A DNA stretch of 47,668 nucleotides from Candidatus Omnitrophota bacterium (GCA_013202525.1 JABMQS010000036.1:1-47668), one strand, 5' to 3'; counted from the first letter of the stretch, positions 2,037-23,664 are shown. Notes: a model not told the origin generated them from the letters alone. Made by a program: numbers and translations.

Positions 2037-2072
2037 GCTTTTTTTGTTTCTGTAAGAACTGACCACCTATAT

Positions 2073-2811: not shown

Positions 2812-2832
2812 AACTACCTCCTATTCACTCCA

Positions 2833-11657: not shown

Positions 11658-13154
11658 TTATGCCTGGCTTAAAATATGTCCATCGATGCGCCTGGTGCTT
11701 CCTGCTAAAGGTACTGCGCCTCCGCTGGATGAGAACTTAACAGGCTCTGTCAGCTCACGATTGTCCTTCTGTTCTTCCTGCCTGACAAGAAAGAGCTTGC
11801 AGATCTTCAGGTTCATCTCAACAGGCGCGAATATATTCACCTTTGCTACTTCTTTTCCTTTGGTAGCGGCAGCTATATCATCACATACGTATATATAGGC
11901 GCTATAACCCTTTTCCCTTCTTACTACTACAAAGTGGACCTTCGCATCCTGCTTAAGCGTAAAATACCACCTGTTTTCTACTCCGTGTATCCTGTCAGGC
12001 CCAAATAGTTCCCAATCCGCGTTCTCAGATATGAGGCCATACTCACCCTCTAGGAGCTTGGCGGCATTATGTGCCAGGTGCTTAAAAATCCCATCCTCCA
12101 CTGCAAACTCCCTAAAAGATTTTTCCGGCTTTACACCTTCTGTCTCCGGTTGGGGATACTTTTCTTTGTATCTTCTGCTACAGTCTCCCCATATATTATC
12201 ATTAAGAATAGTAAGGGCCCCTGATAAGGGAGGGTGTATAATATCAAACCACTTGTTAAACCCTTTCTCCGTGCCTTTTCCTTTATATGTATTGTAATAT
12301 TTCTTCCAGATGAAGCCTAATGCATAGTCAGGAGGCAGCTTCCATACGCCGCTGCGCTCAAACTTCTCCCTATACACATAGAATGATATAAAGCAGGCAA
12401 AGTCCCTGTCTGTTACGCAGAGGCCTCTTAGCTGTTCTCGGTTCATCTTCCAGACCTTATCCCACGTCACCCTGCCTCCGGTAAGCAGTTTTAGCAGCCT
12501 CTTAAATCTCTTGATCTCTCTGTGGCGGCCCGTAGCTACGATCTTTCCTTTCTTATTAGCCACCGGCCAGGTCATATAATTATGGACTATGCCGTATGCT
12601 GTATGGCCTGTTATCTGATAGAATCCGTTTCCATTGTGTGACTTCTTATTGTACTTATCCAGGAAATTGGTCTCCCTGGCTACTGTCCCAAGCATAAGGA
12701 GCCTCCAGCGCCTCAGCTGTTCAGCATCCGCATCCGGAATAATTAGTTTAGCCATCTTTTCAACCCTGCTATATTCCTGCGCATAATTCTTGAATTGCCC
12801 GGCATTTAACCTCGCTGAAGCTACAACCGCGGCAGCATAGCTTATGATAGGCTCTTCCGGGGCCGGTGGAATTGGGTTCAGCTCTATTGGAAATTGCGGA
12901 GGCGGCAGTGATGCCAGCAAAGCGACCTGTGCAGGATCTGCCTGGGCTTTTCCTCCTGAAAGACCTAAGACCAGTGCCGCACTAAGGCCTGCCAAGACAA
13001 TGCGCTTTCCAGCCGAGGACTGCTTCTCGGAAGATGACAAACTACTGGCCATAGGCCGTAAGGCATGACGGCTCGCAGAACCACCAAGGCCTGGGGTAGT
13101 AGCCATCATAACCATGGCTACGCAGATTATAAGAGATACTGGTCTTTTCAGCAT
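11658..13154 (-). CDS. secreted protein with possible lytic-transglycosylase-like core
   Basis: 498 aa with an N-terminal hydrophobic segment. VARETNF...GFYQITGHTAYG resembles the E-S/T ... G-x-x-Q-I motifs of SLT domains. This is weak and from memory; the rest is unrecognised. Confidence 0.5.
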   Translation of the reverse strand: MLKRPVSLIICVAMVMMATTPGLGGSASRHALRPMASSLSSSEKQSSAGKRIVLAGLSAALVLGLSGGKAQADPAQVALLASLPPPQFPIELNPIPPAPEEPIISYAAAVVASARLNAGQFKNYAQEYSRVEKMAKLIIPDADAEQLRRWRLLMLGTVARETNFLDKYNKKSHNGNGFYQITGHTAYGIVHNYMTWPVANKKGKIVATGRHREIKRFKRLLKLLTGGRVTWDKVWKMNREQLRGLCVTDRDFACFISFYVYREKFERSGVWKLPPDYALGFIWKKYYNTYKGKGTEKGFNKWFDIIHPPLSGALTILNDNIWGDCSRRYKEKYPQPETEGVKPEKSFREFAVEDGIFKHLAHNAAKLLEGEYGLISENADWELFGPDRIHGVENRWYFTLKQDAKVHFVVVRREKGYSAYIYVCDDIAAATKGKEVAKVNIFAPVEMNLKICKLFLVRQEEQKDNRELTEPVKFSSSGGAVPLAGSTRRIDGHILSQA

Positions 13155-13373
13155 GACTGTCCTTTTATTTAATTCTTTATTAAACTATATAATAAGTAGG
13201 GGAAGAAATAGCGGCTCTTAGAACCGCGTCTTATTAGTATAAATATGCCCTATAACCTCTATAAAGTCAAGGTCAAGGGGCTGATTTTTTGGATTTTTTA
13301 AAAGGCAGGTTTGATACCGTTTTATTCCTTCGTAGCCCTACCATGATATTAGATATTGCAGGGCGAAGAAGAA

Positions 13374-13449
13374 TGGTGGAGATGGGGGGGTTCGAACCCC
13401 CGGCCTCCTGAGTGCGATTCAGGCGCGCTCCCAGCTGCGCTACATCCCC
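13374..13449 (-). tRNA. tRNA-Ala (anticodon CGC), CCA encoded
   Basis: 76-nt cloverleaf. The acceptor GGGGATG/CATCTCC contains the G3:U70 pair. The D arm is GCGC/GCGC and the anticodon stem CCTGA/TCAGG carries the loop AT-CGC-AC. The T arm is GGGGG-TTCGAAC-CCCCC, followed by ACCA. Confidence 0.9.
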
Positions 13450-13464
13450 ACGAAAAGTGAGTGA

Positions 13465-13493
13465 ATTATATCATATGAAGGGGGTATTTTCAA
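13465..13493 (-). promoter_or_regulatory. sigma70-like promoter for tRNA-Ala (TTGAAA-N17-TATAAT), related to module A
   Basis: Minus strand reads TTGAAAataccccCttcatatgaTATAAT. The -10 ends 15 nt before the tRNA 5' end. Confidence 0.55.
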
Positions 13494-13528
13494 GGTAAAA
13501 AACAGACTGCCGGGTTCCCATAGCAAAC

Positions 13529-13581
13529 AAAAAACCCAAGCAGCTAAGGCTTGGGTCGTGTGGTTGTTTCTCTTTTTATGT
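13529..13581 (-). terminator. Rho-independent terminator plus conserved 3'UTR, module B copy 2
   Basis: Minus strand forms CCCAAGC-N7-GCTTGGG (13535-13555) followed by TTTTTT. It matches 2074-2124 at 49 of 51 positions. Confidence 0.7.
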
Positions 13582-13608
13582 CTGCTATGAGCTCGGGGCT
13601 CACTTAGT

Positions 13609-13989
13609 TTAAGCTCCTACAATTAATTCGACTTTGTCGTTACTCCATAACTTGAAACGAAAATGAGCACCATCTTTTTCATATGTAATTCTAGTAATCT
13701 GACTATAGAATATAAATTTTGCGTGCACAACTCGCTCAATGCTGCTTCTTCCGCTATCATTTGGGTCATTGTGGCGAAATATAAACAGCCCCCTATCATT
13801 AATAAAGCATATCTTTGTCAAAGAAGTATTTTCTGCATATAAAACAACATCTGGAAGCTTGCCAAATTTATCATAATACACTTTATTAAAGTCATTCCAC
13901 AATTCTTTTCGCAAGTCATATTGATTTTTCGCATACGCAATACTCGCCACTAAAACCAACGCGATAATTATTATCAATACCTTCTTCAT
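13609..13989 (-). CDS. small secreted protein, unknown function
   Basis: ATG at 13989 (MKKVLIIIIALVLVASIAYA) is preceded by GGAAGGAG. The track ORF starts 8 codons earlier, inside motif C. Confidence 0.55.
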   Translation of the reverse strand: MKKVLIIIIALVLVASIAYAKNQYDLRKELWNDFNKVYYDKFGKLPDVVLYAENTSLTKICFINDRGLFIFRHNDPNDSGRSSIERVVHAKFIFYSQITRITYEKDGAHFRFKLWSNDKVELIVGA

Positions 13990-14011
13990 ATTCTCCTTCC
14001 TAAACTGTTGC

Positions 14012-14029
14012 ACTACTTTGGGGCGGGTG
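14012..14029 (-). repeat. intergenic repeat motif C, copy 3 (core 18-mer only)
   Basis: actactttggggcgggtg is identical to 10-27 and 1590-1607. It again lies between a stop codon and the next gene's RBS. Confidence 0.75.
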
Positions 14030-14056
14030 GGTTAAATGGGTAAACGGCTTTTATTC

Positions 14057-14365
14057 TTAATGTTCAAATCCGTGTTCCGCAATACGCGCTTTTTTATCGG
14101 AGTTTACATTTATCCATACCTCTTTACCAGTCGTTGAAGAAAAATGTAATTTCCAATCTCCTTCCGAAAAGGTCTTTGCAAGGAAGGCACCTATGCAATA
14201 AAAATTTGCATCTTCTTTCTTTTTTAGTTCTTCCTTTGCAATCTTCAGCGCTTCTTCTAATGCTACAGGTGGTTTTTCTGTCTTATTCCACGTGATTCTT
14301 CTAGCGTAAGATGTTCCCGTTGCCACCACAATTAAGAGAATTAGAATTAATAGTATTTTCCTCAT
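14057..14365 (-). CDS. small secreted protein, unknown function
   Basis: 102-aa ORF with GGAGG 7 nt upstream of the ATG. Signal peptide MRKILLILILLIVVATGTSYA. Confidence 0.55.
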   Translation of the reverse strand: MRKILLILILLIVVATGTSYARRITWNKTEKPPVALEEALKIAKEELKKKEDANFYCIGAFLAKTFSEGDWKLHFSSTTGKEVWINVNSDKKARIAEHGFEH

Positions 14366-14433
14366 ATATTTCCTCCGGTTAACACAGCATCAGCAGCTCA
14401 GCCCTTCGTTAGGAGCTAGCCCTATTTACACCT

Positions 14434-14489
14434 ATTCTACGCCTATGGAGGGGGTGTTTTCAAGGATATTTTGTGTTTTAGGAAAAACT
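14434..14489 (-). promoter_or_regulatory. sigma70-like promoter, module A copy 3 (TTGAAA-N18-TAGAAT) with conserved upstream extension
   Basis: The -10 is at 14434-14439 and the -35 at 14458-14463. The spacer and upstream extension are nearly identical to 2837-2887. The first ~35 nt of the 5'UTR resemble 1985-2006. Confidence 0.55.
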
Positions 14490-14551
14490 GCGGGACTTAG
14501 GGGCATTGTAGGTTGCGAAGCACCTTAACAGCGTATGAATTATATCACGCC

Positions 14552-14635
14552 TCACATATACAATATAGCGAACATGACGAACCACGCCAATAGTAGCGCT
14601 ACTGCTATGATTTTAGTGGTATGTTTTTTATACAT
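14552..14635 (-). CDS. possible 27-aa hydrophobic peptide
   Basis: Encodes MYKKHTTKIIAVALLLAWFVMFAILYM. AAGGA lies ~9 nt upstream. It starts 16 nt after the stop of the HAMP gene. It is too short to be called with confidence. Confidence 0.25.
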   Translation of the reverse strand: MYKKHTTKIIAVALLLAWFVMFAILYM

Positions 14636-14650
14636 TTCTACCAATCCTTA

Positions 14651-15073
14651 TCAATACATCTTCCTCTGCCCCTGGATAGTATCCAGCGCCAGATTCATCT
14701 TATCGGCAAATGACTTCAGCTCATCGCCTGAACGTAATTTGACTCTTTGATCCAGATTCCCCTTTGCTATCTCATCCAAAGTCTTTTCTACATTATATAG
14801 CGGGCCTGCTATCTTGTTGGTGTAGACAAGAAAAGGCCTTAAGATCATAAAAAGCGCTACCGGTGTCAAGACAAGCAAGACGGCGTTTACCTTTCTTAAG
14901 GCTGGAAATAATATCTGGATGATGGCCTCGGGAACGAGCATCTCATTTAAAACATTGTAGTATACGATATAATATAATACGGCAGGGCATAGGATTATCA
15001 GAAGCCCTGCAAAGGCCAGCAGTTTAAGCTGGATGCTCTTATTGACCAGAAATTTCCGTCTTCTATTTTTCAT
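14651..15073 (-). CDS. 2TM membrane protein with a single HAMP-like domain and no output domain (paralog of 16774-17196)
   Basis: ATG at 15073 lies 9 nt after GGAGG. The protein has a basic N-terminus, two TM helices about 20 aa apart, then IAGPLYNVEKTLDEIAKGNLDQRVKLRSGDELKSFADKMN and a stop. It overlaps the upstream gene by 11 nt. Confidence 0.65.
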   Translation of the reverse strand: MKNRRRKFLVNKSIQLKLLAFAGLLIILCPAVLYYIVYYNVLNEMLVPEAIIQILFPALRKVNAVLLVLTPVALFMILRPFLVYTNKIAGPLYNVEKTLDEIAKGNLDQRVKLRSGDELKSFADKMNLALDTIQGQRKMY

Positions 15074-15761
15074 CTTTAGCAACCTCCAGTTGTACCCCGG
15101 ACTCTTTACCTATTGTTATATTATCGACCAGCGCCTCTGCCTCACTGCCGGTCAGGTTAGAATTACACATTATCGCGACGGCCCCGGCAGACCTTGAGGT
15201 CTTTTCGCCAAAGGCCTTCTCAAAATCCTCATATATGTTGCGTTCCTCCTGGACCCACTTGCCAGCCTCATCTCTGCCGCTTCTTACGACTATCTGCATT
15301 ATATTCTTGGCAGAGGGGCTCTGCTGCATATGCCCCTCCGGGAGATGCTCTGACCATATATATTCAATAAATCTAAAAGACGGAAAAGTAAACCCAGGGT
15401 AGATAATATATACGCGGGCCGCGTAATCATCCACGGTCTCGCCGCCCTTAAAGTAGGCTTTTTTGGGAAACTTTAATATGCACCATCTCCATCTCAGTAT
15501 CGGATATTGCTTTGGTTTGAAACCTATCTTATAGAATATGACAGAACAGGCCTTTTTGCTGTCGGCGTGGACAAACCCATTATCACCTTTCAGATCGATA
15601 AAATAGTCTACCTTGCCGTCCAGCACCATCTCGCTCCACTTCCCGAGATCGTCCCTGCTGTTAAAGGAAAAATGCTTCAGATACAGGGCATCGCCGAAAG
15701 AGACGGTGCATGCTATAAGTGCGATAGATACCAATAATGTATAAATTATTAATCTGGACAT
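15063..15761 (-). CDS. DUF3047-like exported/anchored protein (paralog of 17186-17845)
   Basis: 232 aa with an N-terminal hydrophobic segment. The blocks IFYKIGFKPKQYPILRWRWCILKFP, DDYAARVYIIYP, GKWVQEERNIYEDFEKAFG and AGAVAIM match my recollection of DUF3047 (PF11249). Confidence 0.65.
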   Translation of the reverse strand: MSRLIIYTLLVSIALIACTVSFGDALYLKHFSFNSRDDLGKWSEMVLDGKVDYFIDLKGDNGFVHADSKKACSVIFYKIGFKPKQYPILRWRWCILKFPKKAYFKGGETVDDYAARVYIIYPGFTFPSFRFIEYIWSEHLPEGHMQQSPSAKNIMQIVVRSGRDEAGKWVQEERNIYEDFEKAFGEKTSRSAGAVAIMCNSNLTGSEAEALVDNITIGKESGVQLEVAKDEK

Positions 15762-15792
15762 AATAAAGACCGTGTTTGCTCTTGGCGTTTTG

Positions 15793-15829
15793 AAAAAAAG
15801 GCGACCTCAGGATTCAACAAGAGATCGCC
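15793..15829 (-). terminator. Rho-independent terminator after the OMP gene
   Basis: Minus strand forms GGCGATCTC-N12-GAGGTCGCC followed by TTTTTTT. It is flanked by an A-run, so it could act in both directions. Confidence 0.75.
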
Positions 15830-15852
15830 TTTTTTCAATTAATACAGATCAA

Positions 15853-16611
15853 TTAGAACCTTACTGTGAGACCTGCTGTCAATGCGGTTTCATCGATAAA
15901 CCTGCCTTCTAAGTTTATCGACGCAACATCCTGAAATACGTAATCACCGCCTACGAAGATACCTATCTTATCATTATTCTCAAAGTCGATCTTGTAGCTG
16001 TTGCCGTTTACCGTAGCCGTTGCATCGCCTGTTGCATCCGAGTACTTCACGCCTACATACGGTATGAAATTATCTATCTCATAGGTGACTTCAAATGCAA
16101 CCTGCCACTCGTCAAATTCATACTTGGGCGCCTGGTTCGGATCGTCGACATCGAGATGGGCCTGCCTGTAGCGTCCGTCAAAACCCAACCTCATGATACC
16201 GTTCCATAGCTCCTTAAACTGCTTCTCGTATACCATAGCTGTACCGCCTACGGCCCATACGATATCATAATCCGAGGACCACTTTATATTGAGGTCCCCA
16301 AATTGAAACGTCTGTTGAGCCTGGCCTCCTCCCAGCACGCCATAGGCAATAAACCTGTCCAAAAAGAGCACGCCTAATTTGCCGCCGAAAAACATAAACT
16401 GAGTATCACTGGCCTGGTCCTTAAGATTGCGGTCAAAGGTGATGTCATTCTCTGACTCCGCAATAATACCATACTGACCCTGCTCATCCTTGATAATTAA
16501 ACCCTTCTTTAACACTGCCGGTGTGGCAATATTGCCTACCGGAGCCGCATACGCCCAAGCTGTGCTTAGCACAAGCGCAAGGCATATAAGCAGGCTGATC
16601 GATCTTCTCAT
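15853..16611 (-). CDS. outer-membrane beta-barrel protein
   Basis: 252 aa with signal peptide ...STAWAYA. It shows an alternating beta-strand pattern and a C-terminal aromatic residue (LTAGLTVRF). GGAGG lies upstream of the ATG. Confidence 0.7.
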   Translation of the reverse strand: MRRSISLLICLALVLSTAWAYAAPVGNIATPAVLKKGLIIKDEQGQYGIIAESENDITFDRNLKDQASDTQFMFFGGKLGVLFLDRFIAYGVLGGGQAQQTFQFGDLNIKWSSDYDIVWAVGGTAMVYEKQFKELWNGIMRLGFDGRYRQAHLDVDDPNQAPKYEFDEWQVAFEVTYEIDNFIPYVGVKYSDATGDATATVNGNSYKIDFENNDKIGIFVGGDYVFQDVASINLEGRFIDETALTAGLTVRF

Positions 16612-16696
16612 CTTTTCCTCCTTTTTTTTATTAGATATATATAAAACTCAGTATGGATAGAAAAACCTGAGCATGGAATGAGTATTAAGTGTTACT

Positions 16697-16725
16697 ATTG
16701 TAGTATCATAACAGAAAAAAGTCAA
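16697..16725 (-). promoter_or_regulatory. sigma70-like promoter (TTGACT-N17-TACAAT) for the OMP gene
   Basis: Lies in the 162-nt AT-rich gap between 16774 and 16611. Confidence 0.4.
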
Positions 16726-16773
16726 TAGAAAATCTAAAAGAAAAAACAGCGGAGAAATAACTGCCCCGGCCTG

Positions 16774-17196
16774 CTACGGCCCGGCCTTGTACAGAAGTTG
16801 ATTTATCTTATCTACTATTGGCCTGAGTACATCCTTTTCGCGCAATTTGATCGGCCCGCTCTTTTTGCTGGAGATCCTCTCATCCAGATCCTTCTCCAGC
16901 CTCACGATAGGCCCCAGCAGCTTATGCGATAGCTCCAGTGCGAGCAACCATATGATAACCAGGGATATGGGCAGGGCCACTGCAATTATCAGGTTTACTT
17001 TTCGCGCAACGGGAATCAGATTATAAGCTACGGCCTCGGGGATCCCTATCTGCCAGGCCATCATGTTGAATATAAGGTAGTAAAGGCATAGCGTCACTAT
17101 GCCGGCAGGCACCACGGCCGCAAAGAATATCAGGACCAGCAGTCTTGTCTGAGCAGGAGAACCTATCATCTTCCTGCTTCTCTTATTATTCTCCAT
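16774..17196 (-). CDS. 2TM membrane protein with a single HAMP-like domain and no output domain
   Basis: 140 aa with the same layout as 14651-15073 (LLGPIVRLEKDLDERISSKKSGPIKLREKDVLRPIVDKIN). It overlaps the upstream gene by 11 nt. Confidence 0.65.
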   Translation of the reverse strand: MENNKRSRKMIGSPAQTRLLVLIFFAAVVPAGIVTLCLYYLIFNMMAWQIGIPEAVAYNLIPVARKVNLIIAVALPISLVIIWLLALELSHKLLGPIVRLEKDLDERISSKKSGPIKLREKDVLRPIVDKINQLLYKAGP

Positions 17197-17845
17197 CCTT
17201 ATACCCCACTTTCACTTCATCGTAGTGCGCCTCTGCGGTACTCAGGCTGTTATCGGTATCTGTCATAATCGCAATCGCCCCGGCCTCGCCGGGATTTCTC
17301 CCGAAAGCCAGCTTGTAGTCCTCATACACGTTTCTCTCTTCAGAAACCCATTTCCCCAGGTTCTTCTTTCCTGATTCAATGACTATGATCTTTATGTTCT
17401 TAAAATACGGGCTTGTCATTACGGTGCCTTCCGGAATATCTTCATCCCAGACATATTCCAGGCTCTTCGTCAGGTTGAAGGCGAGCCGCGGGAAGATAAC
17501 ATAGAACCTGGCGGCATAATCATCCTTCTCAATCCAGTCGCTCTCAGACCTCATGCTCTTCTTCTCCGGGAACTTCACGACCTTCCACTTCCAGCTGACC
17601 ATGGGTTCTTTCTTGGGGTCAAACTTGATCTTGTAAAAAATGCCCGAAGCCGACTCCTTGCTGTAGGCGCTCAGGTATCTGCCCAGCTTTCCGTCTTCAA
17701 CCACATACAAAACCCTGCCTTTGAATATCTTCTCCTCCCACTCCGAGAGGGCCTTTTCTTCTTTAAAGGAAAATTGTTTCGGCAGGCGCTTGGCAAAGAC
17801 AAGCGTATAGCTAAAGATGGCGCAAACTGCAACTATTGACAGCAC
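17186..17845 (-). CDS. DUF3047-like exported/anchored protein
   Basis: 219 aa from a GTG start. The blocks IFYKIKFDPKKEPMVSWKWKVVKFP, DDYAARFYVIFP, GKWVSEERNVYEDYKLAFG and AGAIAIM are present. The frame stays open 13 codons further 5' (KINKTRTKL) after GAGGA, so the true start is uncertain. Confidence 0.65.
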   Translation of the reverse strand: MLSIVAVCAIFSYTLVFAKRLPKQFSFKEEKALSEWEEKIFKGRVLYVVEDGKLGRYLSAYSKESASGIFYKIKFDPKKEPMVSWKWKVVKFPEKKSMRSESDWIEKDDYAARFYVIFPRLAFNLTKSLEYVWDEDIPEGTVMTSPYFKNIKIIVIESGKKNLGKWVSEERNVYEDYKLAFGRNPGEAGAIAIMTDTDNSLSTAEAHYDEVKVGYKDGE

Positions 17846-17906
17846 TAATTTAGTACGCGTCTTGTTTATTTTATTCCTCGTTCAATCTTTTAGGATAAGG
17901 CCGTCT

Positions 17907-18380
17907 TCACTTCTTGGGCGGGGTGGCCTTTTTGGGGCCCGTCTTGGTTGAACGTTCTTTTACAATGTTCTTTTTGACAAAACTATCTATTGCGCGGGTC
18001 TCTTCTTCGCTGGTAGCTATAAACCGTATTGCTATAAAATAGACCGGCAGTACCGATGTATCTCCGCTGGATGAGGGCGACTCGACGCGGACTATCTCGC
18101 CGGTGCACCTGATAGGTTCTTTAAGCATGGGGAATTGCATACCCATGGTAATGGTCTCACCCAGCCTTATCTTTCTGTCATAGTTGAAGAGTGCGCCGCC
18201 GGCACTTATATTTCTGACAGAGACCATATCGTATTCGCCAAATATGGCTATCCTGGACTTTGAATGGAAACGAAGCCTCACCACAAACTGTTTCTTCAGG
18301 CGCCTATATTTGCGTTTTTCGGCCCCTTGGGAACGCTTGAACTTACGCCTTTCAGCTCCTTTATAAGGCTCCTTAGCCAT
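17907..18380 (-). CDS. PilZ domain protein (c-di-GMP receptor candidate)
   Basis: 157 aa. KRKYRRLKK is RxxxR-like and VRNISAGGALF fits D/NxSxxG. GGAGG lies 7 nt upstream of the ATG. Confidence 0.7.
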   Translation of the reverse strand: MAKEPYKGAERRKFKRSQGAEKRKYRRLKKQFVVRLRFHSKSRIAIFGEYDMVSVRNISAGGALFNYDRKIRLGETITMGMQFPMLKEPIRCTGEIVRVESPSSSGDTSVLPVYFIAIRFIATSEEETRAIDSFVKKNIVKERSTKTGPKKATPPKK

Positions 18381-18420
18381 GCCTATGCCTCCTTAATCGG
18401 TTTATCTGTACCATATCTCA

Positions 18421-18448
18421 ATTTTAACTGTTTTTGATGAAATGTCAA
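18421..18448 (-). promoter_or_regulatory. sigma70-like promoter (TTGACA-N16-TAAAAT) upstream of the PilZ gene
   Basis: The -35 is at 18443-18448 and the -10 at 18421-18426. Confidence 0.5.
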
Positions 18449-18485
18449 TACTATTTTCCGTAAGCTACTGATCTTCCTCATCATA

Positions 18486-18806
18486 TCAAACCCCTCTGAC
18501 CACACTGGAGATCCAATCCAGGTACTGTTTATCCCCCTGGCTTATGTCAATGCCTATTATCTCCGGCGTGGTATAACTGTGAAGCTTCCTTACCAGGGCC
18601 TTGAGCCTTTTAAAACCCGCCTGTGTGGTCTTTATGATCAGCAGGCTCTCCTGGGCCTTATCCTTTTTACCCTCCCAGATGAATATAGACTTTACCTTAG
18701 GGATTATATTGACGCATGCACAGGCCTTGGCATCTATGAGCCCGTCGGCTATCTTCTCAGCCTCCTTCTCCGATGAGGCTGTAACAAAGGCTATGATATA
18801 CTTCAT
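18486..18806 (-). CDS. cutA: divalent-cation tolerance protein CutA
   Basis: 106 aa. The sequence AEKIADGLIDAKACACVNIIPKVKSIFIWEGK...SYTTPEII fits the CutA1 family pattern. Confidence 0.8.
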   Translation of the reverse strand: MKYIIAFVTASSEKEAEKIADGLIDAKACACVNIIPKVKSIFIWEGKKDKAQESLLIIKTTQAGFKRLKALVRKLHSYTTPEIIGIDISQGDKQYLDWISSVVRGV

Positions 18807-18939
18807 CTATATGACTCCTGTTAAAGACATTTATATAAGAGCGGGCACTTCTCGGTAGGAAAACACGGTCTCCGATAATGACGTGGTATTTGGGTGAGTA
18901 TATGAATTTAAACGACTAGAGCGCATTGCGAAGCCTTAT

Positions 18940-19161
18940 TTATCCTTGCTTGTCGGCCTTCTTATTATCTCTTAAAGAGATCTCGAAATCCCCCTTGCCT
19001 TCGACCAGGACATGGCCCTCTCTTGCAAGCCATCCCAGGCTCATAAGAACGATGTCCTGCTGCTTGCCGAGCCCCATAACAAGATCAGAGAGCTTGGCCT
19101 TGCCGTGATCATCCAGGTAATGCCAGATCTCCCCTGCAACGATGCCGATATTTATGATCAT
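18940..19161 (-). CDS. small winged-helix protein (DUF2582-like)
   Basis: 73 aa. IVAGEIWHYLDDHGKAKLSDL...LSLGWLAREGHV resembles the DUF2582 wHTH family as I recall it. It overlaps the upstream gene by 4 nt. Confidence 0.5.
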   Translation of the reverse strand: MIINIGIVAGEIWHYLDDHGKAKLSDLVMGLGKQQDIVLMSLGWLAREGHVLVEGKGDFEISLRDNKKADKQG

Positions 19162-19397
19162 GGAGTTGCCTCCTTTCGCTTATTATAACTACTGCACTGC
19201 GGACACTTGGATATAACATCGTGCTGGCTGTCGACATAGGTATGGGTGCATATCTCGCATTGCCAGATCGACTTTTTTTCTGAAGTATAAAGCTTGGGCT
19301 TTGTATCCCTATCAAAGATAAGCCATAGGATTAGAAGACCTATTACCGTCAAAAACAAATATAACGCAACAGCGGTAGATATGTCAAGTTCAATCAT
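19158..19397 (-). CDS. single-pass membrane protein with C-terminal zinc ribbon
   Basis: 79 aa with an N-terminal TM helix (AVALYLFLTVIGLLILWLIF), then CEIC...N15...CPQC. Confidence 0.5.
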   Translation of the reverse strand: MIELDISTAVALYLFLTVIGLLILWLIFDRDTKPKLYTSEKKSIWQCEICTHTYVDSQHDVISKCPQCSSYNKRKEATP

Positions 19398-19414
19398 CGT
19401 TTTGGGCCATTTTT

Positions 19415-20119
19415 TTATTTCGACTCGAATTTGAGAAGGAGTATGCCTTCCTGGTCATCCTGCGGCAGGTCGGGGTTGAGCTGCGAAAAATTCCATTTCT
19501 TGGCATACCTTATAGCGAAAAGATCTATATCCGGGTGGCCGCATGACTCTATCTTTTCTACAGCCTTTACCCTGCCGTCCGGGGCAATGGTAACCTTTAC
19601 CTTTACATTAAAATGGTCCCCTGCGATGTCCTTATCCGCATTGGAGATCAGGTCCCTGAGATCCGGAAGGGCGGGCTTTAGAAGAACTGCCCTTTCCCGA
19701 GCCTCGCCTTCTATTTCAAAATGTCTGTCTTTCGGCTGTGAGAATGGCTCTTTCTCCTCTACGGAAGGCAACCTCCTATGTGTCTCTAATACCTCATCTA
19801 TAGAGACTCTGTAGGGCTTTGCCTTCATCAGGTAGTCACTTTCTCCTCCGGCGCTTAAACGTTTTACAACGAGTTTTCCCCTGGCCGGCAGAAACAACCT
19901 TTTGCGCCTGGGCTGTATGCCCTCTATATCCGAATTCCGGCCCTTGAACTCACGGTGAAAGGAGTCTTCGCTGAGGATAGAACCTATAAAGTACACAGCA
20001 GAAAGCCTCTGCGGCAAGGCACCCACCGGCAGCACAACAATGGTAACTGCCAAAAAGCAGAACAGATGCCACAAAAAAGATATAATAAGCGCGCGGTTAA
20101 AGGTTATCTTGAATAACAT
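19415..20119 (-). CDS. TonB-like energy transducer
   Basis: 234 aa with an N-terminal TM anchor. The C-terminal VKVKVTIAPDGRVKAVEKIESCGHPDIDLFAIRYAKKWNF resembles a TonB C-terminal domain. It follows exbB-exbD. Confidence 0.6.
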   Translation of the reverse strand: MLFKITFNRALIISFLWHLFCFLAVTIVVLPVGALPQRLSAVYFIGSILSEDSFHREFKGRNSDIEGIQPRRKRLFLPARGKLVVKRLSAGGESDYLMKAKPYRVSIDEVLETHRRLPSVEEKEPFSQPKDRHFEIEGEARERAVLLKPALPDLRDLISNADKDIAGDHFNVKVKVTIAPDGRVKAVEKIESCGHPDIDLFAIRYAKKWNFSQLNPDLPQDDQEGILLLKFESK

Positions 20120-20125
20120 GGGGCT

Positions 20126-20533
20126 TTAATCGGTCGTCTGGTTGGTGGCTATATTTACGCGGGAGATGCCTTCCTGCCGGCATATATCCCAGGCCTCGAC
20201 TATGCGCCCCAGGGAAGCCTTCTTATCAGCCTTGATCAAAACAGGGCGGTGCGCGGAGGCTGCCTTCTTCAGCGCCAATGAAAGCTCCTTGGCAGTAACC
20301 AGCCTTCCGTTGTGATAGATAAGGTTTTCCGCTGTTACAGTTATAACGGTGTTCTCCTCACTCAGTATCTCTGAAGTCACAGCACGGGGGAGATTGACCC
20401 TGATGCCGGGCTGAAATATAAAATTAGAGGTCAGCATGAAAAAGATAAGAAGCAGGAAAACAACATCTATCAAAGGCGCTATATCTATGGTACGCAGAGT
20501 CCTTTCTAATTTTAGATGTCTTTTAAGCTGCAT
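20126..20533 (-). CDS. exbD: biopolymer transport protein ExbD/TolR
   Basis: 135 aa with IDIAPLIDVVFLLLIFFMLTS, typical of ExbD/TolR. Confidence 0.8.
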   Translation of the reverse strand: MQLKRHLKLERTLRTIDIAPLIDVVFLLLIFFMLTSNFIFQPGIRVNLPRAVTSEILSEENTVITVTAENLIYHNGRLVTAKELSLALKKAASAHRPVLIKADKKASLGRIVEAWDICRQEGISRVNIATNQTTD

Positions 20534-21155
20534 AATCTTTACCCCTCTGTGTAAGTATGTTTATAAGATCTGTTGCGCTCCTCTCCATATCGAGCACAAG
20601 ATTATTTACCCTGCTCACCAAATAGTTATAAGCCACATAGACCGGGATCGCGACCGCAAGCCCCGCAACCGTGGTAACGAGAGCCTGCGATATACCTCCT
20701 GCCAGGTCTCCGGGTGAGACGGGATTGAAAGAAGTCGATTTCGCCTGTATGACCTGGAAACATCCCACCATGCCAACTACAGTGCCAAGAAGCCCGAGCA
20801 GCGGTGCGATATGAGCTATGGTGGCCAATGCCGTCAGGTTCTTCTCCATCCTCGGCACCTCGTAGAGCCCTGCCTCTTCTATAGACTCCTTTATCTCCTG
20901 CCTTGGCCGGTCATGTTTGAGAATGCCCGCCTTCAAAATATGGGCTATCGGGCCCGGCGTATTATCGCACATCTCTATGGCCTCGACGATCTTATTGCGC
21001 CGCAGGACATTGGCAATATCATCCATGAATTTACGTGTATCGATCCTTGCCCTGTAGAGGTGGTATACCCTCTCTATAACAATGGCCATTGCTATTATCG
21101 AGCACAGGAGTATCGGATACATTATCGGCCCGCCCTTAACAACCATTTCGAACAT
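20523..21155 (-). CDS. exbB: MotA/TolQ/ExbB proton channel protein
   Basis: 210 aa with GGPIMYPILLCSIIAMAIVIER...APLLGLLGTVVGM, the family signature. Confidence 0.8.
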   Translation of the reverse strand: MFEMVVKGGPIMYPILLCSIIAMAIVIERVYHLYRARIDTRKFMDDIANVLRRNKIVEAIEMCDNTPGPIAHILKAGILKHDRPRQEIKESIEEAGLYEVPRMEKNLTALATIAHIAPLLGLLGTVVGMVGCFQVIQAKSTSFNPVSPGDLAGGISQALVTTVAGLAVAIPVYVAYNYLVSRVNNLVLDMERSATDLINILTQRGKDYAA

Positions 21156-21186
21156 CGTTACCTCCTTTTTAGTTATAGCTTAAAGC

Positions 21187-23664
21187 TTATTCTAATTCAT
21201 CCCTGTGTCTGTCCATCCAGCGAAGCCTTTCGCGCGCATACTTAGCCTCCTGGATATCCTCTTCTGCTATGTCCTCATATATCTTTCTGGCATCAGACCA
21301 TCGCTCCTGCGCCTCCAGTATCTGCGCTGCCCTTAACCGGGCACGCGTGACCCAGTACCTGTTCTTCGGGTAGAGATATCCAACCTTGAGATAATCCGAA
21401 ATCGCTTCGTCATACCGGGTCTGATCCTCCATGCATTCTGCGATCCTGAATTGTATCTCCGCGTTAAAGTCACTGTCTTCTGGGGTGAGGGCCTTCCCAA
21501 AATAATCTGTGGCCTCCTCGTAAAAACCCTTCTGCTGATATACAAGCGCGATCTTTTTGTTTATCAGTCTCTTAAACTGGCCGTCCTTGTATCTAGGCAA
21601 AAGCTCCTTAAGGATACGGATGGCCTCTTCAAACCTGCCGGACTCGGTCAATGTGTCGCCAAGTGCAATAGCGGCATTATAGGCAGAATCGCTGTTCGGG
21701 TAGTCCTCTATCACTTTCTTAAACTTCTCTACGGCCAAGTCTAATTTTCCTTCGCGATAGTAGATCCAGCCGAGAAGATAATTGGCATCATCAAGAAGCG
21801 CGCTGCTAGGGAAGCCCTCGATAACTCTGCTAAGACAATTTTGGGCCCTGCCAAAAAGGCCGTTGCTGTAATAGTGCTGCGCAAACCAGAATATAACATC
21901 AGCGGCGATATCACTGTCAGGGTAGAGCGTAAGATAATTATCGAATACCTTTATTGCGACCTTCTCCTTGCCCATCTGAAAATAACACCACCCGAGCTCA
22001 TACCTCGCCAGCCTCTGCAGCTCCTCGTCCGGACTCTTTTTAATAAGACCCTTGAAGACCGACATCGCCTCTGCGTACTTTCCGGAATTATAAAGGCAGC
22101 TTCCTATCTGATATAAGGCCCTGTCCTTGAAGGGGCTGCTATAGAAACTCTCGACGATCCTCTGGTATTGCTCCTGGGCAAGGTCGTAATTGCCCTGTTT
22201 ATAATAGATGCTACCCAGCTGAAACAGGACCTTGGCCCTGAGCCTGGACTCCGGGAAATTTCTGAGGAAGGTCTTGAAGGTTATCTCCGCGCTGTCAAAC
22301 TCCTTCAATCTTATAAAGGTCTCCCCGAGTTGATACTGGGCATAGTCTGCATAATGGCTCTCCGGATAATCCTTGAGCACCATATCATAGTACTCCTGCG
22401 CCTTATTGTACTCGCCTATATCTGAATAGGCATCCGCGATCCTGCACATAGAACTTATCTTGAGATTATCATCGTCTGTAACTTCAGCAGCCTTCTTGAA
22501 CTCCGCTATGGCCTCCTTTCGACTCTCAAGGCGTATAAGCGACCATGCCAGATTGTAACGGGCATCACCCGCGAGTTTAGTATCGGGCGCAGCCTTCAGC
22601 AGCTTCCTGTATGTGGACACAGCCTCTTTATACCTGCCGAGGGAATAGAGCGACTCTGCCTTCCAGAAATAGGCATCATCCAGGTATCCGCTCTTTGGAA
22701 ACTTGTTTATCAGGCGGGCGTAGACCTCTATGGACTTGTCATATTCGCCTTCTATAGCATTGGAGCGGCCCAGGCCGAATAAGAGGCTGTCTTCGTACTC
22801 ATTCTGGGACGGGTCTTCCATGATAGCTTCAAACTCGGCTATAGCCTCATCATATCTACCCAGTTTAAAATATAGCCATCCTATACTCAAGCGGGCGTAA
22901 GGGATCCATTTTCTCTCGCCGGAGAGCGCGAGGGAATCCTTGTAAGCAGTCAGGGCCTCCTGGTACTCTTTAAGCCGATAGAGTATCTCTCCTTTCAGAA
23001 AAAGTATATCCTTGGTCTCGTTGCCAAGGGGAAATTTCACAAGGTAAGATTCGACCCTCTCCCTGGCGTCACCGAGCCTGCCAAGGTCATAAAGGCACTC
23101 TGCTGATTTATATATAGCCGACGGCACGATCCTTGAACCGGGATACTCTTCTGTTATCTTCTCAAAATCTGCCAGGCCCACTTCCATATTATTTACATCG
23201 TTCTTCTTATAATAGGCCCATCCGTGGGAATAGTATGCGTAGGGGACATAGATAGACAGGGGATGCTCGTTTATGAGTTTATTGTAAAATACGATGGCGC
23301 GGTCATAATCGCCTGCCTTAAAATTGACTTCGCCGGCCCAGTATAGTGCCTCGTCTGTCAGTTTCGATTCCGGGGAGGACTTAAGCACTATCTCAAACTG
23401 GTTCAATGCCTGTGGATACTTGTCGCTGTAGAAGTATGATTTTCCAAGCAGAATATGTGCCTCTTCCAGGCGGGCACTTTCAGGATAGGCATCAATAAAT
23501 TCATCTGCCTGCTGTATGGCGATATCATAGAAGGTGTCGTTTACAGCCTTCTTTATGACCAAAAGCTGCTGGGATTCTGCCTCAGTCTCAGCGTAAGAAG
23601 GCAGAATATGGCCTGCAAACAAAAGCAAACTAATAATGATAATGGGCTTGAATAGGGATCTCAT
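21187..23664 (-). CDS. secreted multi-TPR repeat protein
   Basis: 825 aa with a signal peptide. The mature protein consists of recurring TPR/YbgF-like repeats throughout (A..Y..G..YY..G.Y..A...F). Confidence 0.75.
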   Translation of the reverse strand: MRSLFKPIIIISLLLFAGHILPSYAETEAESQQLLVIKKAVNDTFYDIAIQQADEFIDAYPESARLEEAHILLGKSYFYSDKYPQALNQFEIVLKSSPESKLTDEALYWAGEVNFKAGDYDRAIVFYNKLINEHPLSIYVPYAYYSHGWAYYKKNDVNNMEVGLADFEKITEEYPGSRIVPSAIYKSAECLYDLGRLGDARERVESYLVKFPLGNETKDILFLKGEILYRLKEYQEALTAYKDSLALSGERKWIPYARLSIGWLYFKLGRYDEAIAEFEAIMEDPSQNEYEDSLLFGLGRSNAIEGEYDKSIEVYARLINKFPKSGYLDDAYFWKAESLYSLGRYKEAVSTYRKLLKAAPDTKLAGDARYNLAWSLIRLESRKEAIAEFKKAAEVTDDDNLKISSMCRIADAYSDIGEYNKAQEYYDMVLKDYPESHYADYAQYQLGETFIRLKEFDSAEITFKTFLRNFPESRLRAKVLFQLGSIYYKQGNYDLAQEQYQRIVESFYSSPFKDRALYQIGSCLYNSGKYAEAMSVFKGLIKKSPDEELQRLARYELGWCYFQMGKEKVAIKVFDNYLTLYPDSDIAADVIFWFAQHYYSNGLFGRAQNCLSRVIEGFPSSALLDDANYLLGWIYYREGKLDLAVEKFKKVIEDYPNSDSAYNAAIALGDTLTESGRFEEAIRILKELLPRYKDGQFKRLINKKIALVYQQKGFYEEATDYFGKALTPEDSDFNAEIQFRIAECMEDQTRYDEAISDYLKVGYLYPKNRYWVTRARLRAAQILEAQERWSDARKIYEDIAEEDIQEAKYARERLRWMDRHRDELE

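What the first reader, a model, noticed from the sequence alone, without database searches (positions are those of the whole stretch)
14552..18448. PilZ plus two paralogous [DUF3047-like / sensor-less, output-less 2TM-HAMP] gene pairs flanking a beta-barrel OMP: candidate undescribed envelope signalling module
What the sequence shows:
- 17907-18380 encodes a PilZ-type protein (KRKYRR, NISAGG) behind TTGACA-N16-TAAAAT.
- Downstream, the same two-gene unit occurs twice.
- The first gene of each unit is a ~220-230-aa protein with an N-terminal signal or anchor and a DUF3047-like core. The shared blocks are IFYKIxFxPKxxPxxxWxW..KFP, DDYAARxYxIxP, GKWVxEERNxYEDxxxAFG and AGAxAIM.
- The second gene is a ~140-aa protein with a basic N-terminus, two TM helices only about 20 residues apart, one HAMP-like segment and then a stop. 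It has no periplasmic sensor domain and no kinase, MCP, cyclase or phosphatase output.
- In both units the HAMP gene starts 11 nt before the stop of the DUF3047 gene (17186-17196 and 15063-15073). The translational coupling is therefore conserved between the paralogous units.
- A 252-aa OMP sits between the units with its own promoter-like site and a clean terminator.
- A 27-codon hydrophobic ORF follows the last HAMP gene.

Inference: the exported DUF3047 protein may act as the sensing partner, supplied in trans to a membrane HAMP transducer. PilZ would tie the locus to c-di-GMP. I know of no assigned function for DUF3047 or for this pairing.
Basis: partly seen in the sequence, partly recalled or inferred. 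Interest (0 to 1): 0.8.

Follow-up and report, generated by a model that had tools for sequence, protein, structure and literature searches.

The report
Exported DUF3047 protein with mini-HAMP partner
Omnitrophota bacteria always encode a secreted protein of unknown function (DUF3047) directly ahead of a tiny membrane protein that is only two membrane helices plus one HAMP signal-relay domain; this window holds two old copies of that undescribed gene pair, while the neighbouring PilZ and outer-membrane genes are not part of it.

Summary
The sequence observations are correct. All ORFs, both paralogies (39% and 32% identity), both 11-nt gene overlaps, the PilZ motifs, the promoter-like sites and the terminator after the OMP gene were confirmed.

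It is a two-gene unit:
- a Sec-exported beta-jelly-roll DUF3047 protein;
- a roughly 140-aa inner-membrane protein made of a basic N-tail, two TM helices joined by a very conserved short loop, and one divergent HAMP domain, with no output domain.

The small gene directly follows DUF3047 in 83 of 83 testable Omnitrophota loci, usually overlapping by 4-26 nt, while all flanking genes differ. Three of three reverse look-ups agree. The small protein is never longer, so it is not a broken sensor gene. It belongs to an unannotated family of at least 522 clusters at 50% identity.

The divergent B-type pair recurs as a pair elsewhere (L093). PilZ, the OMP and the mini-ORF are not conserved neighbours, even in the closest relative (73% identity). 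DUF3047 outside the phylum (7 loci) has no such partner.

The best mechanism, which is inferred, is a stoichiometric periplasm-membrane complex in which the HAMP bundle relays a state between DUF3047 and an unidentified cytoplasmic partner. The direction of signalling is unresolved. I rate this a new variant of a known kind, of moderate interest.

The parts
18421..18448 (-). Promoter-like site (TTGACA-N16-TAAAAT) upstream of the PilZ gene. It could drive PilZ, DUF3047-A and mini-HAMP-A as one transcript.
   Evidence: 11 of 12 matches, the best site in 14300-18900. This is a consensus match only. No terminator-like structure lies between PilZ and DUF3047-A.
17907..18380 (-). Stand-alone PilZ-domain protein (157 aa). 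It is a local neighbour and not a conserved part of the module.
   Evidence: PF07238, E 1.6e-9, above GA. RKYRR and NISAGG motifs are visible. It is not linked to the pair in 85 other loci.
17186..17845 (-). DUF3047-A: a Sec-exported, soluble periplasmic beta-jelly-roll protein (219 aa from GTG). It is the ortholog of the module found across Omnitrophota.
   Evidence: PF11249, E 6e-48; 60-73% identity to hundreds of Omnitrophota proteins; beta-sandwich model, pLDDT 70; signal peptides with AXA sites across the family; an in-frame ATA at 17869, preceded by AGGA, may be the true start.
16774..17196 (-). Mini-HAMP-A (140 aa): basic N-tail, TM1, conserved loop (GIPEAVAYNLIP), TM2 continuous with HAMP helix AS1, connector, AS2, then stop. 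It overlaps DUF3047-A by 11 nt.
   Evidence: junction. AF2 pLDDT 79, helices at 14-48, 53-108 and 125-138; hhalign 94% to canonical HAMP; the loop is the most conserved region; the first 15 aa carry 5.1 K+R against 0.4 D+E.
16697..16725 (-). Promoter-like site (TTGACT-N17-TACAAT) ahead of the OMP gene.
   Evidence: 10 of 12 matches. A strong AAAGGAGG ribosome-binding site precedes the ATG.
15853..16611 (-). Probable outer-membrane beta-barrel protein (252 aa) inserted between the two units. It is not a conserved partner.
   Evidence: Chlam_OMP E 6.7e-9 over 36 aa only; OMP_b-brl below GA. One search shows a signal peptide and a C-terminal F. A homolog lies next to the module only in L012.
15793..15829 (-). 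Intrinsic terminator after the OMP gene (GGCGAUCUC...GAGGUCGCC followed by U7).
   Evidence: -23.1 kcal/mol, z -5.4, 0 of 200 shuffles as stable. The consensus scan missed it because the loop is 12 nt.
15063..15761 (-). DUF3047-B: a divergent paralog (232 aa), exported.
   Evidence: PF11249, E 2.8e-37; 39% identity to A; a 59% ortholog in L093, also followed by a B-type small protein.
14651..15073 (-). Mini-HAMP-B (140 aa from ATG 15073; the longest ORF starts at TTG 15082). It overlaps DUF3047-B by 11 nt.
   Evidence: junction. HAMP 22.3 bits and HAMP_2 17.6 bits, both below GA. HAMP regions of WalK and CtpM at about 1e-6; 32% identity to A; 42% identity to the L093 partner.
14552..14644 (-). 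Hydrophobic mini-ORF of 27-30 codons. It is probably not a gene and not part of the module.
   Evidence: only 2 of 78 loci have any hydrophobic mini-ORF in the equivalent position, and none is similar in sequence. L093 has no room for one.

Best explanation
The real feature is a two-gene, translationally coupled envelope module specific to Omnitrophota. It is present twice here as anciently diverged A and B copies.

Gene 1 encodes a Sec-exported, soluble periplasmic beta-jelly-roll protein (DUF3047). Its family-wide conserved residues are mostly Trp, Asp and Asn, which suggests a lectin-like or ligand-binding site.

Gene 2 encodes a roughly 140-aa inner-membrane protein. It has a basic cytoplasmic N-tail, two TM helices joined by a short and highly conserved periplasmic loop, and a single divergent HAMP domain. 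Nothing follows the HAMP domain.

Proposed mechanism (inferred):
- The two proteins are made in fixed ratio and form a complex at the periplasmic face of the inner membrane.
- DUF3047 contacts the conserved loop of a dimeric mini-HAMP protein. It may do so through its Omnitrophota-specific N-terminal segment.
- The HAMP four-helix bundle couples the state of that contact to a cytoplasmic partner that is not encoded in the module.
- Because there is no output domain, any output must be a protein-protein contact made by the HAMP bundle and the conserved basic N-tail.
- The direction is unresolved. It could be outside-in (DUF3047 as a co-sensor, as in LuxP/LuxQ or TorT/TorS). It could be inside-out (the membrane protein holds or releases DUF3047, as in LapD/LapG).

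Shown: gene content, strict pairing, coupling, export signal, topology, HAMP homology, and absence of an output domain. Inferred: the physical complex, signalling, and its direction.
For: Strict pairing
- The small gene lies immediately downstream on the same strand in 83 of 85 loci, and the other two contigs end before there is room for it.
- About 70 of the 83 junctions overlap by 4-26 nt.
- Flanking genes are unrelated between loci.
- Reverse look-ups starting from the small protein find DUF3047 upstream in 3 of 3 cases.

Co-divergence
- B-type DUF3047 pairs with a B-type small protein both here and in L093.

Export of DUF3047
- Signal peptides with AXA sites occur across the family.
- The AF2 model is a beta-sandwich, and Foldseek returns only jelly-roll folds (GH11, GH12, CBM, CFAP20) at TM 0.35-0.45.

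The small protein
- AF2 gives TM1, a turn, TM2 continuous with AS1, a connector and AS2.
- HAMP homology: hhalign 94%, E 8.5e-8 against independent HAMP kinases; family HMM against those kinases, E about 1e-4; Pfam HAMP in 6 of 49 members.
- The loop at residues 47-64 is the most conserved region.
- The N-tail follows the positive-inside rule.

Never fused to an output domain
- All 231 word-indexed hits are 136-152 aa.
- Nearly all of the best 150 hits among 522 clusters are 130-150 aa.

Precedent
- Distant mini-HAMP proteins in L102 and L103 are preceded by a different exported partner.
- LapD/LapG shows that a HAMP domain can regulate a periplasmic protein from inside the cell (PMC4359373).
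Against:
- The exposed loop is only about 17 residues, a small docking surface for a 200-aa protein.
- No conserved third gene was found, so the supposed cytoplasmic partner is unidentified.
- DUF3047 works without such a partner in Proteobacteria and Fusobacteriota, so its core activity does not need a HAMP protein.
- The HAMP segment is divergent: it falls below Pfam's threshold in the window proteins and might serve only as a dimerisation bundle.
- The DUF3047 model is of moderate quality (pLDDT 70, residues 20-57 below 50), so site-level inference is weak.
Confidence: 0.55

Rival explanations
1. Tether or assembly factor without signalling. The small protein only anchors, positions or stabilises DUF3047 at the inner membrane. 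Its HAMP-like helices are a static dimerisation bundle, and no information crosses the membrane.
For: There is no output domain and no conserved third gene. The HAMP segment is divergent and below Pfam's threshold. DUF3047 functions alone in other phyla. Translational coupling fits a stoichiometric structural complex.
Against: HAMP hallmark positions are invariant over 82 sequences: the G-P in AS1, the R and D ahead of AS2, and the N in AS2. AS1 is the second most conserved region. The cytoplasmic N-tail also carries a conserved motif (FANxxH). A passive anchor would not need either feature.
Confidence: 0.22
2. PilZ, the two pairs and the OMP form one c-di-GMP-linked trans-envelope system, analogous to YfiBNR or Lap.
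For: All six genes are on the same strand and close together. PilZ lies 37-61 nt upstream of DUF3047-A with no terminator between them. PilZ-domain proteins occur within 4 kb of the module in a few other loci: a PilZ-T2SSE ATPase (Pfam-confirmed in L059; the L039 protein is assigned only by size and clustering) and a PAS-kinase-PilZ protein (Pfam-confirmed in L075, motif seen in L041).
Against: Neighbour clustering over 82 loci finds no recurrent third family. An OMP homolog is adjacent in 1 of 85 loci, and no ortholog of this PilZ is adjacent in any. The closest relative (73% identity) and the B-type locus L093 lack both. The OMP gene has its own promoter-like site and a strong terminator, which makes it a separate transcription unit.
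Confidence: 0.08
3. Secreted toxin or effector (DUF3047) with a small membrane immunity protein encoded just downstream.
For: The gene order, overlap and partner size (an exported protein followed by a small polytopic membrane protein) resemble bacteriocin/immunity pairs.
Against: The pair is highly conserved: DUF3047 is 50-73% identical across 80 species with unrelated flanks, which points to a core function rather than arms-race diversity. There are no PADLOC hits and no secretion-system, CDI or mobile-element neighbours. DUF3047 in other phyla has no downstream immunity-like gene. A HAMP domain is not a feature of known immunity proteins (background knowledge).
Confidence: 0.05
4. Artefact. 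The small ORFs are 5' fragments of sensor kinase or MCP genes broken by frameshift or misassembly, or chance ORFs.
For: Some source annotations call family members 'methyl-accepting chemotaxis protein' or 'sensor histidine kinase'.
Against: The same 135-150 aa length and the same stop position are seen in 83 independent assemblies, in 231 database proteins and in 522 clusters. What lies downstream differs from locus to locus and is never a kinase or MCP remnant.
Confidence: 0.01

Closest known systems
Af1503 of Archaeoglobus fulgidus (the prototype HAMP structure, PDB 2L7H)
   Same: It is a membrane protein whose C-terminal HAMP domain is followed by no output domain. PMC3585426 describes it as lacking the input and output domains usually attached to a canonical HAMP. 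Its function is unknown.
   Different: Sequence similarity is limited to the HAMP level (E 0.7). Af1503 is not known to be paired with a co-encoded exported protein. The family here is bacterial, about 140 aa, and strictly linked to DUF3047.
LapD/LapG inside-out system (Pseudomonas fluorescens)
   Same: An inner-membrane 2TM-HAMP protein controls a soluble periplasmic protein by binding it. The HAMP domain dominates the regulation (PMC4359373). In this window a c-di-GMP receptor (PilZ) is adjacent.
   Different: LapD has a PAS-like periplasmic domain and a cytoplasmic GGDEF-EAL c-di-GMP receptor module, and the mini-HAMP protein has neither. LapG is a cysteine protease, not a DUF3047 jelly roll. 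The PilZ adjacency is not conserved.
Sensors that depend on a periplasmic binding protein (LuxP/LuxQ, TorT/TorS, MBP/Tar), and intramembrane-sensing kinases with short loops that sense through an accessory protein (BceS/BceAB, LiaS/LiaF)
   Same: A separate extracytoplasmic or membrane partner supplies the stimulus to a 2TM transducer, and the signal passes through a HAMP domain next to the membrane. The very short loop between the TM helices resembles that of intramembrane-sensing kinases. This comparison rests on background knowledge, plus the BceS paper listed.
   Different: All of those transducers carry a kinase or MCP output domain. Here nothing follows the HAMP domain. DUF3047 is not a Venus-flytrap type binding protein.
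DUF3047 (PF11249) proteins of Proteobacteria and Fusobacteriota
   Same: They share the same domain above Pfam's threshold, are also exported, and share a conserved core of Trp, Asp and Asn residues.
   Different: They have no downstream mini-HAMP gene in 7 of 7 loci examined. Their neighbours are often envelope-lipid or envelope-glycan genes such as lgt, pgsA, mprF and EPS genes. The Omnitrophota proteins have many extra lineage-specific invariant residues, including DDYAAR, E130, R171, E205 and the N-terminal FxF...EK.F segment.

Membership tests
DUF3047 (Pfam PF11249) | Full-length match to the family HMM above the gathering threshold (27 bits) | tested here: met
   protein A scores 163.4 bits (profile positions 2-197 of 198) and protein B scores 128.6 bits.
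DUF3047 (Pfam PF11249) | Exported single-domain protein of about 200-250 aa | tested here: met
   signal peptides with AXA sites in Omnitrophota and outgroup members; all listed hits carry PF11249 only and are 193-282 aa.
HAMP domain (Pfam PF00672 / PF18947) | Match to the Pfam HMM above the gathering threshold (25 / 24.3 bits) | tested here: not met
   protein B scores 22.3 and 17.6 bits, and protein A has no hit; only 6 of 49 family members give any HAMP hit at E<=0.1.
HAMP domain (Pfam PF00672 / PF18947) | Profile-level homology to canonical HAMP over AS1, connector and AS2 | tested here: met
   hhalign probability 94.4%, E 8.5e-8, 57 columns, against the HAMP regions of two genuine HAMP histidine kinases. 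HMM E about 1e-4 for the same regions. HAMP regions of WalK, CtpM and MtrB at 1e-5 to 1e-6.
HAMP domain (Pfam PF00672 / PF18947) | About 50 residues directly after TM2: helix AS1 with a conserved Pro, a flexible connector containing Gly, and helix AS2 starting with a conserved acidic residue | tested here: met
   helix 53-108 runs from TM2 into AS1, the connector is 109-124, and AS2 is 125-138. G95-P96, R119, D122 and N132 are invariant.
HAMP domain (Pfam PF00672 / PF18947) | Homodimeric parallel four-helix bundle | not testable with these tools
   Only monomer prediction was available. The fold search with the monomer was uninformative.
Two-component sensor kinases, MCPs, or HAMP-linked cyclases and phosphatases | An output domain (HisKA/HATPase, MCP signalling domain, GGDEF/EAL, PP2C) C-terminal to the HAMP domain | tested here: not met
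   The proteins end 2-16 residues after AS2. This holds for all 83 partners, for all 231 database hits, and for nearly all of the best 150 hits among 522 clusters.
PilZ c-di-GMP receptor (PF07238) | HMM match above GA, plus the RxxxR and (D/N)xSxxG motifs | tested here: met
   38.5 bits against GA 22.5. RKYRR and NISAGG are visible. c-di-GMP binding itself cannot be tested here.
LapD/LapG-type inside-out system | A LapD-type receptor with a periplasmic PAS-like domain and a GGDEF-EAL module, plus a LapG-type protease | tested here: not met
   No such domains appear in any of the six proteins. The resemblance is one of logic only.
Outer-membrane beta-barrel (OMP_b-brl PF13505 / Chlam_OMP PF01308) | HMM match above GA over most of the barrel | tested here: inconclusive
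   OMP_b-brl scores 13.9 bits, below GA 28.7. Chlam_OMP scores 35.3 bits, above GA 20, but over only 36 residues. A signal peptide and a C-terminal Phe are present.
Known anti-phage defence systems (PADLOC) | Match to any PADLOC model | tested here: not met
   no hit for any of the six proteins at E<=0.01.

The most novel reading that the evidence does not exclude
The mini-HAMP protein is a minimal trans-envelope relay that works purely through protein-protein contacts. In this reading a cytoplasmic factor binds the HAMP bundle and basic N-tail (in this genome perhaps the adjacent PilZ protein loaded with c-di-GMP). Through the conserved loop, that binding captures or releases the periplasmic DUF3047 lectin or enzyme. 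This would be a LapD-like inside-out switch stripped down to 140 residues. It would also give the first function for DUF3047 and the first physiological role for an output-less HAMP protein. A sister module with a different exported partner (L102, L103) hints that this could be a general architecture.
Probability: 0.2. Interest if true: 0.75.

Novelty: new variant of a known kind. Interest (0 to 1): 0.55.

Why it matters
DUF3047 has no assigned function. The only paper found that mentions it is a metagenome correlation study.

Output-less HAMP proteins have been a curiosity since Af1503, which supplied the reference HAMP structure yet has no known role.

A strictly conserved, translationally coupled pairing of the two across a phylum gives both a testable partner. 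It also defines a large unannotated protein family: at least 522 clusters with no Pfam or NCBIfam model.

The pair offers a very small system, 140 aa plus one soluble protein, for asking how a HAMP bundle passes information across a membrane without an enzymatic output.

It may bear on envelope biology in Omnitrophota, an uncultured phylum. The practical limit is that the function is still inferred and the organisms are not cultivable, so tests would have to be heterologous or in vitro.

Tried and rejected
1. An iterated HMM search for the small protein drifted into HAMP-HisKA-HATPase kinases. The model grew to 317 positions and produced spurious 'long homologs' at 1e-80. I rejected it and rebuilt the model from size-restricted seeds.

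2. The word-indexed search with small protein B alone found only 2 hits. It needed the family alignment and the exhaustive search.

3. The fold search with the DUF3047 model gave only generic jelly-roll matches at TM 0.35-0.45, topped by ciliary CFAP20-like proteins and the N-domain of glucuronyl C5-epimerase. This supports a fold class only, not a function.

4. The sequence search of the PDB with the DUF3047 profile found nothing.

5. The fold search with the monomeric mini-HAMP model was uninformative.

I redid it with database protein ids as A3.

7. A glycoside-hydrolase reading of DUF3047 (two catalytic Glu residues, as in GH11 and GH12) was considered. E130 and E205 are invariant only within Omnitrophota and are not conserved in the outgroup, so I did not adopt it.

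8. A lipoprotein reading of DUF3047-B (the LIAC lipobox-like motif) was rejected because the L093 ortholog has no Cys.

9. The defence-system reading found no PADLOC hits.

10. The mini-ORF as a third component is not conserved.

11. Terminators after the two mini-HAMP genes are not significant: z -0.7 and z 0.0.

12. The literature search for Omnitrophota plus HAMP listed 10 of 21 papers. Judged by title and abstract only, none looked relevant.

Full report
**1. Observation check**

Family scans confirm the main identifications:
- PilZ at 17907-18380: PF07238, E 1.6e-9, above threshold.
- DUF3047 at 17186-17845: PF11249, E 6e-48.
- DUF3047 at 15063-15761: PF11249, E 2.8e-37.

The two DUF3047 proteins are 39% identical. 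The two small proteins are 32% identical, E 2e-19. The unit is therefore an ancient duplication, not a recent repeat.

Direct reading of both junctions shows an ATG 8 nt upstream of the DUF3047 stop codon. This gives 11-nt overlaps at 17186-17196 and 15063-15073. For unit B the longest ORF starts at a TTG 9 nt further upstream, but alignment with the family favours the ATG.

Transcription signals:
- The promoter-like sites are the best in the region: TTGACA-N16-TAAAAT before PilZ, and TTGACT-N17-TACAAT before the OMP gene.
- The hairpin after the OMP gene is a convincing terminator: -23.1 kcal/mol, z -5.4, followed by U7.
- Nothing comparable follows either small-protein gene.

Pfam HAMP support is weak: 22.3 bits against a threshold of 25 for protein B, and no hit for protein A.

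**2. Source organism**

DUF3047-A has hundreds of homologs at 60-73% identity. Those that carry names are nearly all named Candidatus Omnitrophota or Omnitrophica. The window is an Omnitrophota contig.

**3. The conserved entity is the gene pair**

- Forward test. A scan of one genome per species with a DUF3047 alignment found 260 relatives and kept the best 80 loci, all Omnitrophota. An HMM built only from the window's two small proteins detects a homolog immediately downstream of DUF3047, on the same strand, in 83 of 85 loci. In the other two, the contig ends within 20 nt of the DUF3047 stop. The pairing therefore holds in 83 of 83 testable cases.
- Junctions. About 70 of the 83 overlap by 4-26 nt. 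The most common overlaps are 8, 14, 4 and 11 nt. A minority have gaps of 2-153 nt.
- Size. The partners are 123-170 aa, and 80 of 83 fall between 100 and 149 aa (most are 135-149 aa in the listing). None extends into a kinase, MCP or cyclase.
- Flanks. The flanking genes are unrelated between loci.
- Unbiased neighbour test. All-against-all clustering of the genes at positions -4 to +5 in 82 non-redundant loci finds only DUF3047 (82 loci) and the small protein (80 loci) to be recurrent. The next family is a response-regulator receiver, in 12 loci at scattered positions and on both strands. The rest are lineage-level synteny with housekeeping genes: GDP-mannose dehydratase, AdoMet decarboxylase, nitroreductase and a deaminase.
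- Reverse test. Starting from small-protein homologs on long contigs, DUF3047 is directly upstream in 3 of 3 cases.

**4. PilZ, the OMP and the mini-ORF are local**

- phmmer with the window's PilZ, OMP and CutA against all ORFs of the 85 loci finds an OMP homolog next to the module only in L012. It finds no ortholog of this PilZ protein anywhere.
- The closest relative of unit A (73% identity) has CTP synthase and DUF1846 upstream, and no OMP or second unit.
- A metagenome scan with DUF3047-B found a 59% ortholog (L093). It is followed by a B-type small protein that is 42% identical to B and 32% to A. It has no PilZ, OMP or A-unit within 5 kb.
- The A and B types therefore each keep their own partner. 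This is the expected pattern if the two proteins work together.
- The hydrophobic mini-ORF after unit B has no counterpart elsewhere. Only 2 of 78 loci have any hydrophobic mini-ORF in that position, and none resembles it.

**5. The small protein**

Family size and annotation:
- A profile search of the word-indexed database returns 231 proteins, all 136-152 aa. None has a precomputed Pfam domain. They are labelled 'hypothetical' or carry spurious kinase or MCP names.
- An exhaustive HMMER search of 1.84 billion cluster representatives gives 522 clusters at E<=1e-10. Almost all of the best 150 are full-length matches in proteins of 130-150 aa.
- This is a large, dedicated and unannotated family, not debris from sensor genes.

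Structure:
- The AF2 model (pLDDT 79) has a helix at 14-48 (TM1), a 4-residue turn, one continuous helix at 53-108 (loop, TM2 and AS1), a 16-residue connector, and a helix at 125-138 (AS2).

HAMP homology:
- The alignment shows an invariant G-P in AS1, invariant R and D before AS2, and an invariant N in AS2.
- A profile-profile comparison with the HAMP regions of two independent HAMP histidine kinases gives 94% probability, E 8.5e-8, over 57 columns.
- The family HMM aligns TM2 plus HAMP of those kinases at E about 1e-4.
- I conclude that it is a genuine but divergent HAMP domain.

Topology and conservation:
- The first 15 residues carry on average 5.1 Lys+Arg against 0.4 Asp+Glu. The N-terminus and the HAMP domain are therefore cytoplasmic, and residues 47-64 face the periplasm.
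- That loop (consensus Q.GIPEAIAYN.IPAA.KV) is the most conserved part of the protein. AS1 is second.

**6. DUF3047**

- Family members carry classical Sec signal peptides with AXA cleavage sites, so the mature protein should be soluble in the periplasm.
- The AF2 model (pLDDT 70; the core is above 80 and residues 20-57 are below 50) is a beta-sandwich.
- Foldseek against the PDB gives only generic jelly-roll matches at TM 0.35-0.45: GH11 and GH12 glycosidases, a CBM, CFAP20-like proteins and an epimerase N-domain. No sequence relative has a solved structure.
- Residues conserved both in Omnitrophota and in seven outgroup proteins are mostly Trp, Asp and Asn: W36, W85, W87, D109, Y131, W133, W166, N172, D176, D196 and D198. 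That composition is typical of sugar-binding or metal-binding sites in lectin-like sandwiches. This is an inference.
- The two Glu residues that are invariant in Omnitrophota are not universal. That argues against a GH11/GH12-type catalytic pair.
- Many additional positions are invariant only in Omnitrophota. They include the N-terminal segment of the mature protein, which the monomer model could not place. That segment is a candidate partner-binding element. This too is an inference.

**7. Outside the phylum**

- tblastn against plasmid records found DUF3047 genes in Alpha-, Beta- and Gammaproteobacteria and in Fusobacteriota.
- In seven such loci, no ORF of 40 aa or more matches the small-protein HMM even at E<=10. 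The annotated neighbours are unrelated to it.
- The pairing is therefore a lineage-specific acquisition, not a general property of DUF3047.
- Conversely, more distant output-less 2TM-HAMP proteins (147-212 aa, hitting Pfam HAMP) exist without DUF3047.
- In two of these, one from Muiribacteriota and one from Omnitrophota, the gene directly upstream encodes a membrane-anchored, Cys-containing protein of about 120 aa. The two upstream proteins are weakly related: 28% identity, E 4e-6.
- This hints that 'exported partner plus mini-HAMP' is a recurring arrangement with interchangeable partners.

**8. Mechanism**

Shown:
- an exported protein and a minimal 2TM-HAMP membrane protein are always co-encoded;
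- they are usually translationally coupled;
- they have co-diverged;
- the membrane protein has no output domain.

Inferred:
- they form a complex at the periplasmic face;
- the HAMP bundle links the state of that complex to a cytoplasmic partner through protein-protein contacts.

Two directions have precedents:
- Outside-in, with a separate periplasmic protein delivering the stimulus (LuxP/LuxQ, TorT/TorS, MBP/Tar), or short-loop intramembrane-sensing kinases that depend on accessory proteins. These rest on background knowledge.
- Inside-out, as in LapD/LapG, where the HAMP domain dominates control of a periplasmic protein (PMC4359373).

Because DUF3047 functions alone in other phyla, regulating or retaining an autonomous periplasmic activity is at least as plausible as co-sensing.

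Rivals:
- The main rival is a non-signalling tether.
- The toxin/immunity and artefact readings are poorly supported or refuted.

**9. Comparison with known systems and novelty**

- The nearest precedent for an output-less HAMP membrane protein is Af1503 (PMC3585426). Similarity to it is only at the level of the HAMP domain.
- The small-protein family has no Pfam or NCBIfam model. DUF3047 has no assigned function, and only one paper mentioning it was found.
- The parts and the general logic are of known kinds. The specific, phylum-wide pairing and the complete absence of an output domain are not described.
- I rate it a new variant of a known kind, with moderate interest (0.55). The genomic pattern is very solid, but the function is inferred and the wider PilZ/OMP/c-di-GMP idea is not supported.

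Noticed in passing
L102:2638-3639 and L103:2637-3603: A possible sister module. Distant output-less 2TM-HAMP proteins (212 and 200 aa, with a Pfam HAMP hit) in a Muiribacteriota MAG and an Omnitrophota MAG are each directly preceded by an N-terminally anchored protein of about 120 aa. The two upstream proteins share a Cys motif (C...CP..G.Y.....CT.H) at 28% identity, E 4e-6. In L103 the pair is followed by two T2SSE (PilB/MshE-like) ATPases and a HAMP-PAS kinase.
   Followed up: partly
L041:3514-5442, L075:939-2903 (minus strand), L059:5000-6400 (minus strand), L039:5093-6493 (minus strand): PilZ-domain fusion proteins lie within 4 kb of the DUF3047/mini-HAMP pair in a few loci. One type is a PAS-HisKA-HATPase kinase with a C-terminal PilZ domain. 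The other is a PilZ-T2SSE ATPase. The Pfam assignments were made on L075 and L059; L041 shows the motif and L039 is grouped with L059 by size and clustering only. No baseline frequency of PilZ genes in these genomes was available, so enrichment could not be judged.
   Followed up: partly
window 17845-17884 (minus strand): The called GTG start of DUF3047-A (17845) has no Shine-Dalgarno sequence, and the resulting signal peptide has no basic n-region. An in-frame ATA at 17869 lies 5 nt after an AGGA and would give MNKTRTKLVLSIV..., a textbook signal peptide like those of the homologs. This may be a non-canonical start codon or a sequence error.
   Followed up: no
L086, L087, L088 (plasmid loci); L097:4441-5256: Outside Omnitrophota, DUF3047 genes sit near envelope-lipid and envelope-glycan genes. 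These are lgt (twice), pgsA, mprF, an L,D-transpeptidase and an EPS glycosylphosphotransferase with gmd. In one Omnitrophota locus an LPG_synthase_C gene abuts the pair. The sample is small, but it may be a lead to the substrate of DUF3047.
   Followed up: no
window 18486-23664 (minus strand): Upstream of PilZ on the same strand lies a string of envelope-related genes: an 825-aa TPR protein with a YfiO/BamD-like match, ExbB/TolQ, ExbD/TolR, a TonB_C-like protein, a 79-aa membrane protein with a treble-clef zinc finger, a DUF2582 winged-helix protein, and CutA.
   Followed up: partly
window 11658-14365 (minus strand): Downstream of unit B lie two small proteins with N-terminal hydrophobic helices (signal-peptide-like) and no family match (14057-14365 at 102 aa; 13609-14013 at 134 aa). 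They are followed by tRNA-Ala(CGC) at 13374-13449 and a 498-aa protein with no Pfam hit.
   Followed up: no
L010, L011, L017, L020, L022, L025 and others: Many MAGs titled 'uncultured Planctomycetia' or 'Planctomycetales' carry DUF3047/mini-HAMP modules that are 55-66% identical to Omnitrophota ones. These record titles are probably taxonomic mislabels of Omnitrophota bins.
   Followed up: no
window 1-3000: G+C content is lower (0.37-0.40) than in the rest of the window (0.44-0.52). The region was not examined further.
   Followed up: no
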